Positions 1 to 59,973 of a DNA stretch of 64,000 bases are shown piece by piece. The translations under genes and the position numbers were made by a program. Each line of letters begins with the position of its first letter. Position 1 is the stretch's first letter. The stretch spans positions 4,588,001-4,652,000 of the forward strand of contig NC_089433.1 in the NCBI RefSeq assembly GCF_026210795.1, given 5' to 3'. The stretch comes from Rhizophagus irregularis. Taxonomy: Eukaryota. The notes beneath the pieces are model-generated. The model was not told where the DNA came from and ran no database searches. It saw only the letters and a list, made by a program, of their open reading frames with translations.

Positions 1-420
1 TATTATTACTTAGTATCATTATAATATTTACATATAATTTAAGCTAAACTAACTAAATTCTTTATTTAAAAAATTATTTTGTAATTTCCTTTAGATTGTA
101 AGTTATAATTTACTATTTATTTAATTCTATTATTACTTATTATAATAATATTTACATATAATTTAAACTAACTAAATTCTTTATTTAAAAAAATTATTTT
201 ATAGATGGTAAGTTATTTATTTAATTCTATTATTACTTATTGTTATAATATTTACATTTAATTGAAACTAACTATTTAATTTCCTTTAGATGGTAAGTTA
301 TTTATTTAATTCTATTATTACTTATTGTGATAATATTTACATATAATTTAAACTAACTAAATTTTTATTTAAAAATTATTTAATAATATAGCTTGTAAGT
401 TATTTGTAATTTTATTGTTA
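1..420 (+). repeat. Tandem ~85-110 bp units, each an intron plus a 3-nt micro-exon
   Basis: Recurrent unit gtaagttatttatttaattctattattacttat...tttacatataatttaaactaactaaa...tag+NNN, about 4 copies, each containing a CTAAC branch-point-like motif. Confidence 0.85.
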
Positions 421-1999
421 TATATTTTATATTTATTTGTTAACTGTATTCTTTCATTTAAAATTTCTATTACTTTAGTTGGTAAGTTGTGAAATATAGC
501 TTATTATTATTATATATATTTGTACAAGAACTAAGACATATATTATCTTAAATTCCAATTTAAATTTTAGAGTGAGTGTTAATTTTAATCTTAAATTTTG
601 TGTCAATTTTATTATGAACTTTAATTATTTAAATTTATAGATTTGGAAAAAGTGGAAATACAATTATAGATAAATTTATCCTTGAAAAAAGATTAAAATG
701 GATTCCTTATAATAAATTTAAAAATGTTGAATATCTTAATGAAGGAGGATTTGGTACTATATACAAAGCTATTTGGTTAAAAAATAATGAAGATAATAAA
801 GAAGTAATTCTTAAATGTCATAATAATTTAAATGAAAATTTAAATGAATTTTTAAATGAAGTATGATAGTATATTATTTATTTTTTTCAATTTGAATTAT
901 AATTTACTTATATTAATATATTATTATTTTTTATAGTGGAAATATCATGAAAGATGTTTAGATTCAATTGAAATTATTTATTTTTATGGATTTACAAAAG
1001 ATCCAGATACTTTAAAATATATGGTAGTAATAGATTATGCAAACAAAGGTAATTTAAGAGGAAACTTAACAAGAATAATCAAAAATAATTGGGATCAAAA
1101 ATTATATATGTTGTGTGAAATTATTTCTGGACTTAATAGTATACATGAACAAAATCTTATTCATTGTGATTTTCATGATGGTAATATTTTAAATCATAAT
1201 GAGGATAAAATTTATGTTAGTGATTTAGGATTATGTCAGCCTGTAAAATCATTTTTGAAAGAGTATAATATTTATGGTGTTGTACCATTTATGGCACCTG
1301 AAGTTTTAAGAGGCAAATCTTATACTCCAGCTAGTGATATATATAGTTTTTCTATGATTATGTGGGAATTTACATCTGGTACGCCACCATTTAACAATAG
1401 AGCACACGATATTCAACTTAGTTTAAGTATTTGTAAAGGTGAACGTCCTGAAATTATTGAAAATACTCCACAATGTTATGTAGATTTAATGAAAAAATGT
1501 TGGGATGAAGATCCATTAAACAGGCCATCTTCTAAGGAAGTTTTAAAAACTATTATAAAATGGATTGGTCTTCCTTCTAACAAGAAAATTAAAGATATTG
1601 ATAAAGAATTAAAATGTAATATTATGGAATTTATAAATGCACCAATTGGGCATAACATTCTTACTACTGAATCTCATCCACAGGCTTGTTATACAAGTCG
1701 CATACTTGATTTTACTAGTAAAAAATTGAATGAAATTCTTGAAAGTGAAGATTTGAATAGTTGTATAATTAAAGATTTGAAGTCATTAGGTATGTAATAT
1801 AGTATATATAAAAATTAATCTTGCAAATCATTTTTGTGAAATTAATTTATTATTTAATATTAAAACAGATAAAAATACTAGTAAAAAATTGAATGAAATT
1901 CTTGAAAGTGAAGATTCACAAACTTATTATGCAAGCCATTCTTCTACTGGCATAACTGAAGAGTTGGATGATTGTATAATCAAAGATACAAGTAATTAG
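95..1999 (+). CDS. TKL-type Ser/Thr/Tyr protein kinase, 5'-partial, with N-terminal micro-exons
   Basis: Exon 641-860 reads FGKSGNTIIDKFI...EGGFGTIYKA...VILK. Exon 937-1789 has HCDFHDGN, SDLG, MAPE and SDIYSF. A probable duplicated terminal exon lies at 1869-1999. GT-AG introns preserve frame. Putative upstream micro-exons: 95-97, 205-207, 290-292, 392-394, 479-481 and 571. The start lies left of the window. Confidence 0.9.
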
Positions 2000-59678: not shown

Positions 59679-59973
59679 CCCTATAAAAAAAGAAAATTCG
59701 GAATTTGTCCTGAAAAGTATGGAAAATGTCCGGAAATTTTCCATGCATCCGGAAAACATTCAGAAACGGTCACGTTTTGGAACACTTTCTGGACGCACAA
59801 ATTCCAGACATTTTCTTGACACTTCAGAATTTGTCCAGAATTTGTCCAGAATCGAGCGTCCGGAAAATGTTCCAAAACGTGACCATTTCCGAATGTTTTC
59901 TGGACGCACGGAAAATTTCCAGACATTTTCCATACTTTTCAAGACAAATTTTGAATTTTCTTTTTTTATAGGG
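59679..59973. mobile_element. 295-bp palindromic MITE, copy 2
   Basis: Same length and termini as 25282-25576; TSD TAG (59676-59678 and 59974-59976). Confidence 0.93.

What the first reader, a model, noticed from the sequence alone, without database searches (positions are those of the whole stretch)
1..860. Second micro-exon array (five 3-nt exons plus a 1-nt exon) spliced in frame onto a TKL kinase
Seen: TAG-ATT-GTAAGT (95-97), TAG-ATG-GTAAGT (205-207, 290-292), TAG-CTT-GTAAGT (392-394), TAG-TTG-GTAAGT (479-481) and TAG-A-GTGAGT (571), then the kinase exon at 641, which needs phase 2. Reading the 3-nt exons in phase 1 gives x-Y-D-A-F, the 1-nt exon completes GAA (E) from three exons, and the frame runs into FGKSGNTIIDKFI without a stop. 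Phase and Y/D/F bias match the secreted-peptide array at 57 kb. Inference: the kinase has a variable, single-residue-modular N-terminal segment. A functional link between the two loci (for example receptor and ligand, or a shared splicing programme) is speculative.
Basis: partly seen in the sequence, partly recalled or inferred. Interest (0 to 1): 0.82.

Follow-up and report, generated by a model that had tools for sequence, protein, structure and literature searches.

The report
Single-codon exon array on mycorrhizal kinases
A kinase gene of an arbuscular mycorrhizal fungus (Rhizophagus) begins with a row of three-base exons and one single-base exon, and RNA reads from close sister genes carry the same joined bases, so this kinase family likely has a variable, aspartate-rich front end that the gene annotations examined miss.

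Summary
There are five 3-nt exons and one 1-nt exon, each flanked by TAG and GTRAGT; 2000 shuffles gave a mean of 0.047 such sites and a maximum of 2.

PolyA reads from one study (two samples) support splicing. In three runs, 283, 352 and 410 reads have about 40 unplaced bases before position 641, and their consensus ends in the predicted 13 joined bases. The reads are mostly 88-95% alike, so they come from paralogues, not this locus.

The introns of units 1-4 are recent tandem copies. The 1-nt exon is needed for frame. Metagenome relatives keep it (3 of 3 with an upstream flank).

The host gene is a Rhizophagus TKL-type kinase with intact catalytic motifs. None of 102 anchored public models carries the D/Y-rich tract; seven appear to read 21-43 triplets in the wrong frame. 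Paralogue first exons are acidic and lack a signal peptide or TM segment.

Skipping within one gene is untested. A link to the 57-kb peptide array is unsupported.

Closest precedent: Tuber nank codon-sized microexons. Verdict: new variant of a known kind; interest 0.7.

The parts
1..94 (+). Cut intron of the repeat unit; the array continues beyond the window's left edge
   Evidence: 85.7% identical to unit 98-207 over 83 nt; ACTAAC 47 nt before AG
95..97 (+). 3-nt exon ATT, phase 1
   Evidence: paralogue RNA consensus has ATA at this rank (AGA)
205..207 (+). 3-nt exon ATG, phase 1
   Evidence: matches paralogue RNA consensus
290..292 (+). 3-nt exon ATG, phase 1
   Evidence: matches paralogue RNA consensus
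392..394 (+). 3-nt exon CTT, phase 1
   Evidence: matches paralogue RNA consensus
479..481 (+). 3-nt exon TTG, phase 1; its final G prevents a TAA stop at the next junction
   Evidence: same TTG exon in L002; RNA consensus
571..571 (+). 1-nt exon A, adaptor from phase 1 to phase 2; supplies the middle base of GAA (Glu), a codon built from three exons
   Evidence: stop at residue 15 without it; same 1-nt exon in L001, L002, L003; RNA consensus
98..391 (+). Three recently duplicated introns (98-204, 208-289, 293-391) forming the tandem intron+triplet unit
   Evidence: about 93% identity over 61-90 nt; pairwise z 14.6-19.1; alignment
641..860 (+). Kinase exon: SGN..ID.FI helix, Gly-rich loop (EGGFG), VILK lysine, alpha-C
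   Evidence: helix and strands predicted on homologue P0001
937..1789 (+). Kinase exon: catalytic HCDFHDGN, DLG, APE, C-lobe and tail
   Evidence: Pfam PF07714 E 1.7e-33; 860->937 joint in RNA
1869..1999 (+). Likely last coding exon, a partial repeat of the tail, ending in a stop at its 3' end
   Evidence: RNA depth about 10-28 per direction at 1821-1960 from paralogues; this joint was not among the joints listed

Best explanation
The six tiny exons are the 3' end of a tandem array of 'short intron + one triplet' units that is likely spliced, mostly constitutively, between an acidic first exon and a cytoplasmic TKL kinase, giving a D/Y/H/N/W-rich tract whose length and sequence likely diversify between paralogues by unit duplication, loss and point change. 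Shown in the sequence: the exons, the duplicated introns, and the need for the 1-nt exon and for a non-T base before it. Shown in paralogue RNA: the joined bases, and chains of exon-like sequence next to retained array introns. Inferred: (1) this locus is spliced like its paralogues; (2) the first exon is an acidic EEFEGSGS-type repeat ending in phase 1; (3) full arrays hold tens of triplets; (4) because every exon is phase 1, each residue is set by the last base of one exon and the first two of the next, so a few triplet types (ATN, GGN, CTN/TTN) give Y/H/N/D, W/R/G and F/A-type residues; (5) the tract is a disordered, fast-evolving module for partner specificity or regulation, placed just before the kinase N-lobe, where more distant relatives carry a CxxC..CxxC motif.
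For:: 6 sites against shuffle mean 0.047; 283, 352 and 410 reads with loose ends before 641 (median 39-43 nt), consensus ending ATG-ATG-CTT-TTG-A in all three runs, and ATN-type triplets further up. Chance of a 13-nt match is about 4e-8, and that string is not contiguous anywhere in the window. (95% likeness): the same tail in 6 reads; 6+12 reads (X22) and 10+10 reads (X23) join an array intron start to 48-78 nt of exon-like sequence, as expected of partly spliced RNA; 3 reads carry 9 letters between two array introns; the 1-nt exon is in L001, L002 and L003, TTG is in L002 and ATT in L003; of 102 anchored models, 31 end in [CRSG]K just before the kinase exon (background dipeptide rate 1.5%), which is what a phase-1 GTAAGT donor cut at its +4 GT would give; 15 start exactly at the exon; 7 of 18 such models with 15 or more upstream residues are 85-100% I/M/G/L/V/R (background 32%), i.e. 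triplets read in phase 0; shifting P0043 to phase 1 allows E-E-F-D-E-E-S-E-F-E, the register of the acidic first exon, while phase 2 forces stops. CxxC..CxxC upstream in 28 of 46 distant relatives, 0 of 18 near ones.
Against: The RNA is not from this locus: position 680 differs in 233 of 234 and 197 of 200 X21 reads, and most reads are 88-95% alike. It comes from one study and two samples. The second study (X24) and the contig run X7 listed no loose end at 641, though coverage there was 0-4 and only six loose ends per run are shown. Consensus agreement is only 0.57-0.72, which could also reflect skipping. The DNA behind the mis-framed models was not seen, so their triplets being exons is inferred. 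The 5' end of this gene lies outside the window. No experiment bears on what the tract does.
Confidence: 0.6

Rival explanations
1. The array is a combinatorial splicing cassette: each gene makes many isoforms by skipping single-codon exons, as reported for the Tuber nank genes, giving a somatically diversified kinase repertoire for non-self or partner recognition.
For: All array exons but one are symmetric 3-nt exons; 91 of 128 tested subset and first-base combinations stay stop-free. Loose-end agreement is low, 0.57-0.59 at 88% likeness and 0.72 at 95%. Precedent in Tuber (passages in PMC4986451 and PMC3689799). The closest solved folds are RIPK2, RIPK1 and BRAF kinase domains.
Against: The last 13 bases are the same in the consensus of all three runs. 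Low agreement further up is expected from a mixture of paralogues. Dropping TTG creates TAA whenever the last kept exon ends in T; 37 of 128 combinations have a stop. Donors are near-optimal GTAAGT. RIPK-like fold is general TKL similarity (23-27% identity).
Confidence: 0.25
2. The array is a neutral by-product: a spliceable intron+triplet minisatellite expands and contracts by unequal exchange, and the tract is only a tolerated linker, selected merely to stay in frame and stop-free.
For: Units 1-4 are young near-identical copies. L003 holds a degenerate unit. The unit is highly repeated in the DNA-like run X1, where head-to-tail units enclose different letters (table 5c). The triplet alphabet is narrow, as copying from few founders would give.
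Against: The TTG and 1-nt exons are kept while their introns have diverged. Tens of extra introns per gene must be spliced without error. An unrelated phase-1 array exists in a secreted-peptide gene in the same window, which suggests that the layout is reused.
Confidence: 0.25
3. The reads come from paralogues that encode the D-rich tract in an ordinary exon, and the array at this locus is not spliced (pseudogene or dead copy).
For: No read was shown to come from this locus. One distant kinase, P0275, has an in-frame D/Y-rich N-terminus in its model.
Against: An ordinary exon should appear in some annotations, yet 0 of 102 anchored near models has such a tract. Relatives L001-L003 have the tiny exons. 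Partly spliced reads exist. This locus has intact splice signals, an open frame and intact catalytic motifs.
Confidence: 0.07
4. The kinase is a receptor whose variable N-terminal tract pairs with the microexon-encoded secreted peptide at 57 kb.
For: Both arrays are phase 1 with GTAAGT donors and give Y/D/F-rich peptides.
Against: No intron homology. They lie 56 kb apart. The paralogue acidic first exons (P0011, P0035, P0044, P0058, P0064, P0098, P0139) have best 15-residue hydropathy of at most 0.21, so no signal or TM segment. The tract would be cytoplasmic and the peptide secreted.
Confidence: 0.03

Closest known systems
[quoted passage not shown] 2012; seen only through citing passages in PMC4986451 and PMC3689799; the paper itself is not held)
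   Same: Expanded paralogous signalling-type family in a mycorrhizal fungus, carrying arrays of single-codon exons.
   Different: The host gene here is a TKL kinase, not NACHT-ANK. The lineage is Glomeromycotina, not Ascomycota. The array ends in an obligatory 1-nt phase adaptor. Alternative splicing is reported for nank and is untested here. The exon phase in nank could not be checked.
Schistosoma mansoni micro-exon genes, MEG (passages of PMC10526429)
   Same: Runs of very short exons, mostly multiples of three, hard to annotate, linked to protein variation.
   Different: MEG exons are mostly 15 nt with introns of 0.1-5 kb and encode secreted proteins with a signal peptide. Here exons are 3 nt or 1 nt, introns 69-107 nt, and the product is likely a cytoplasmic kinase. 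The 57-kb gene in this window is the closer MEG analogue.
1-nt microexons of plant APC11 and VPS55 (passages of PMC8831610)
   Same: A single-base exon with a GTRAGT donor, missed by annotation, whose omission gives wrong or short N-termini.
   Different: Those are isolated exons in conserved genes. Here the 1-nt exon closes a tandem array of triplet exons.
Expanded tyrosine-kinase-like genes of Rhizophagus irregularis (expansion stated in a passage of PMC4219462, citing Tisserant et al. 2013)
   Same: PF07714 kinase domain; the named best homologues are R. irregularis, R. diaphanus and R. clarus proteins at up to 90% identity over the 73-aa exon.
   Different: Public models of this subfamily lack the true N-terminus. 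More distant relatives often have a CxxC..CxxC motif where this subfamily has the microexon tract.

Membership tests
TKL / PK_Tyr_Ser-Thr protein kinase | Kinase domain above the Pfam cut-off | tested here: met
   PF07714 116.5 bits against cut-off 23.1; PF00069 110.4 bits. Homologue model matches RIPK2, BRAF and RIPK1.
TKL / PK_Tyr_Ser-Thr protein kinase | Catalytic motifs (Gly loop, beta-3 Lys, catalytic Asp/Asn, DFG-type, APE) | tested here: met
   EGGFG, VILK, HCDFHDGN, DLG, APE in the joined translation; same variants are the commonest among homologues. Motif names are from general knowledge.
TKL / PK_Tyr_Ser-Thr protein kinase | Catalytic activity | not testable with these tools
   Needs an assay.
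Tuber nank-type codon-sized microexon genes | Array of multiple codon-sized exons that are spliced | tested here: met
   Five in the window; spliced tail in paralogue RNA; 21-43 units inferred from models.
Tuber nank-type codon-sized microexon genes | NACHT-ankyrin host gene | tested here: not met
   Only kinase families match the two large exons; the part left of the window was not seen.
Tuber nank-type codon-sized microexon genes | Alternative splicing of the microexons within one gene | tested here: inconclusive
   Agreement 0.57-0.72 cannot separate skipping from a paralogue mixture.
Schistosoma MEG | Secreted protein with signal peptide, mostly encoded by short exons | tested here: not met
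   Most coding sequence is in two large kinase exons; paralogue first exons are hydrophilic.
Schistosoma MEG | Long introns (0.1-5 kb) between exons of mostly 15 nt | tested here: not met
   Introns 69-107 nt, exons 1-3 nt.
Receptor (transmembrane) kinase | Signal peptide or TM segment upstream of the kinase | tested here: inconclusive
   Absent from seven paralogue acidic first exons; this gene's own 5' end is outside the window.

The most novel reading that the evidence does not exclude
Rhizophagus runs a hidden diversification system on an expanded kinase family. Arrays of tens of phase-1 single-codon exons, closed by an obligatory 1-nt exon, let duplication and exon skipping rewrite an N-terminal recognition tract one residue at a time, each residue being set by a pair of neighbouring exons. 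This would give coenocytic AM fungi a variable intracellular non-self sensing repertoire of RIPK-like kinases, convergent with Tuber nank genes, and the same layout is reused on secreted peptides.
Probability: 0.2. Interest if true: 0.88.

Novelty: new variant of a known kind. Interest (0 to 1): 0.7.

Why it matters
Rhizophagus irregularis is the model AM fungus, and the role of its expanded TKL kinases is open. If this holds, a subfamily of those kinases is mis-annotated at the N-terminus in all the near models examined, and its most variable part has been invisible. Correct models would make testable whether the tract varies between paralogues, strains and nuclei, and whether it sets partner specificity. 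It is also an extreme case for splicing: consecutive 3-nt exons and a codon assembled from three exons. It suggests that single-codon exon arrays arose separately in two mycorrhizal lineages on different signalling genes.

Tried and rejected
No genome is held for the window, so the array could not be extended leftwards and paralogue arrays could not be read whole. The run search listed no holder on record as RNA; this blank is no evidence either way. Metagenome scan: 5 short loci, none reaching the 5' end. Prokaryote-genome and viral-contig scans, tried for stray fungal contigs, found nothing. A search with the N-terminal 112 residues of P0058 returned only itself. Searches for correctly framed models found none among the near homologues (one search listed 120 of 192 hits), and none among the close matches from 150 representatives. 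Cluster look-up of 10 proteins added none. Laying at 95% likeness did not isolate this locus. Rejected: a start at or after 641; chance occurrence; common origin with the 57-kb array; SP7-type effector structure, which is repeats with one conserved intron before the first repeat (section 6 of PMC11333574). Literature: nothing on such arrays in AM fungi in the listings for microexon + Rhizophagus, micro-exon + arbuscular mycorrhizal + kinase (13), Rhizophagus irregularis + tyrosine kinase-like + expansion + exons (16), arbuscular mycorrhizal fungi + mini-exons (51), Rhizophagus + very short exons + kinase (63). One search timed out (36). The library lacks most subscription journals, Iotti 2012 included, and no supplements were read, so a prior mention cannot be excluded.

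Full report
Observation. In 2000 dinucleotide shuffles of 1-640 the mean count of such sites was 0.047 and the maximum 2, against 6 seen. The same scan of the whole window found one other plus-strand cluster of this kind, at 57.2-57.8 kb. The introns are 69-107 nt and 9-18% GC; four of seven have ACTAAC 23-47 nt before the acceptor, and five of seven have no other AG.

Host gene. Exons 641-860 and 937-1789 encode a kinase (PF07714, E 1.7e-33) with EGGFG, VILK, HCDFHDGN, DLG and APE. A probable last exon, 1869-1999, ends in a stop. All 120 listed hits of the first search (of 192 found) are named Rhizophagus proteins; the second search added 81 short hits, Rhizophagus or unnamed. A model of homologue P0001 (pLDDT 86) has a helix at residues 7-15 before the N-lobe and matches RIPK2, BRAF and RIPK1 domains at 23-27% identity, which is general TKL likeness. 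The first in-frame Met after 641 is residue 102, past the Gly loop and catalytic Lys, and reading back into the intron meets stops. The gene therefore needs upstream exons.

RNA evidence. Three polyA raw-read runs (X21-X23; two samples, one study; about a quarter of each read) were laid on 1-2100 at 88% likeness. The 860->937 intron is confirmed. At 641, 283, 352 and 410 reads have unplaced 5' parts of median 39-43 nt. In all three runs the consensus ends ATG-ATG-CTT-TTG-A, the predicted join of exons 205 to 571; the next triplet is ATA against ATT here, and further triplets are ATG, ATA, ATC or GTG, reading as D, N, H or G in phase 1. A 13-nt match has a chance of about 4e-8 and the string is not contiguous in the window. 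At 95% likeness six X22 reads gave the same tail. Groups of 6-12 reads in X22 and X23 joined the start of an array intron to 48-78 nt of exon-like sequence, and three reads held nine letters between two array introns; these look like partly spliced molecules. Limits: the reads are from paralogues (680 C>T in 233 of 234 and 197 of 200 X21 reads); agreement is 0.57-0.72; and X24 (second study) and X7 listed no loose end at 641, at depth 0-4 and with six ends shown per run.

Conservation and origin. Of five metagenome loci, three have sequence upstream of a matching kinase exon, and all three carry the 1-nt exon; L002 also has TTG before it, and L003 has ATT plus a degenerate unit. L004 is cut within the exon and L005 is a distant match without such sites. 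Introns 98-204, 208-289 and 293-391 are about 93% alike over 61-90 nt, the cut unit at 1-94 86% (z 14.6-19.1), while the last three introns are diverged. The array thus has an old fixed 3' end and a young, duplicating upstream part. Without the 1-nt exon the frame stops at residue 15. Without TTG, a preceding exon ending in T makes TAA; 91 of 128 tested combinations were stop-free.

What annotations show. Of 201 near homologues, 102 had a recognisable start of the 641-type exon (99 did not and were set aside). Of these, 15 begin exactly there, 18 read through the intron, 31 end in C/R/S/G-K just before it (background 1.5%), 38 have other leaders, and none has a D/Y/H/N/W-rich leader. The x-K ending is what results when a phase-1 GTAAGT donor is cut at its +4 GT to reach phase 2 (inference; all six donors here have that GT). 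Seven of 18 such models with long leaders (P0020 = PKY50234.1, P0030, P0040 = POG77171.1, P0043, P0053 = PKC64656.1, P0057, P0058 = POG70100.1; accessions) have 21-43 residues that are 85-100% I/M/G/L/V/R over the last 20. These are the residues that ATN, GGN and CTN/TTN triplets give in phase 0, and P0020 ends M-L-L like this locus. Shifting P0043 to phase 1 allows the E-E-F register of the acidic first exon seen in P0011, P0035, P0058 and P0098, whereas phase 2 forces stops. Those first exons are net acidic and hydrophilic. I did not see the DNA behind these models. Among distant relatives, 28 of 46 have CxxC..CxxC just before the same SGN..ID.FI motif, against 0 of 18 near ones.

How it most likely works. 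Shown: signals, frame logic, family-level splicing, unit duplication. Inferred: acidic exon 1 (phase 1), then tens of triplets, TTG, A, kinase. The product would be a cytoplasmic kinase with a disordered D/Y/H/N/W/G/R tract beside the N-lobe, diversified between paralogues by gain, loss and change of units. A role in partner specificity or regulation is my best guess (0.6 for the whole account; about 0.9 for splicing alone). Skipping within one gene (0.25) and a neutral linker (0.25) remain open and are not exclusive of each other.

The 57-kb array. It translates in phase 1 as a signal-peptide-like leader followed by a short C/D/Y/W-rich stretch. Its introns are unrelated to the kinase array. 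It was not tested with RNA. It shows that the layout occurs twice, not that the genes interact.

Comparison and novelty. Codon-sized microexon arrays are known from the Tuber nank family (citing passages only); Schistosoma MEGs and plant 1-nt exons are further precedents (passages). Five searches found no report for AM fungi or kinases, in a library that lacks most subscription journals. An earlier AI note on another fungal genome describes a similar 3-nt array; it is unchecked and is not support. This works like the nank arrays in layout but is not a member of that family. Verdict: real; new variant of a known kind; interest 0.7.

Noticed in passing
window:57085-57790 (+): Separate phase-1 microexon gene: an 82-nt first exon with a signal-peptide-like leader, then exons of 9, 3, 3, 6, 3 and 3 nt giving a C/D/Y/W/E/F-rich peptide. 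Some of its introns resemble each other (z up to 7.9) but not the kinase-array introns. No further microexon was found downstream by a relaxed scan. Not tested with RNA.
   Followed up: partly
window:57850-59700: A-rich, higher-GC, ORF-like stretch directly after the last microexon of the 57-kb gene, with similar sequence facing inwards near 59700-59960; possibly a mobile-element insertion interrupting that gene (read by eye).
   Followed up: no
window:20267-21045 (+): A second, distant kinase gene (26-47% identity); no GTRAGT-type microexon sites were found near it.
   Followed up: partly
window:2210-2520: Three tandem copies of a ~120-nt AT-rich unit downstream of the kinase; similar motifs recur downstream of the kinase in L001 and L003.
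   Followed up: no
window:10600-11250 (-): Several repeated AG...GT-bounded short segments in a T-rich stretch on the minus strand; may be the reverse view of plus-strand repeats.
   Followed up: no
P0058, P0072 N-termini: Some paralogue models start M-G-Q-C-I-C or M-G-Q-Y-I-G, which recalls N-myristoylation/palmitoylation signals (recalled, not tested); this would anchor the kinase to a membrane without a TM segment.
   Followed up: no
P0275: A distant unnamed kinase (42% identity) whose model has an in-frame D/Y-rich N-terminus before the SGN motif; gene structure unknown.
   Followed up: no
L003:31-244: Array with an ATT exon, a unit whose splice signals look degraded or duplicated, and the 1-nt exon; suggests that units can decay.
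   Followed up: partly
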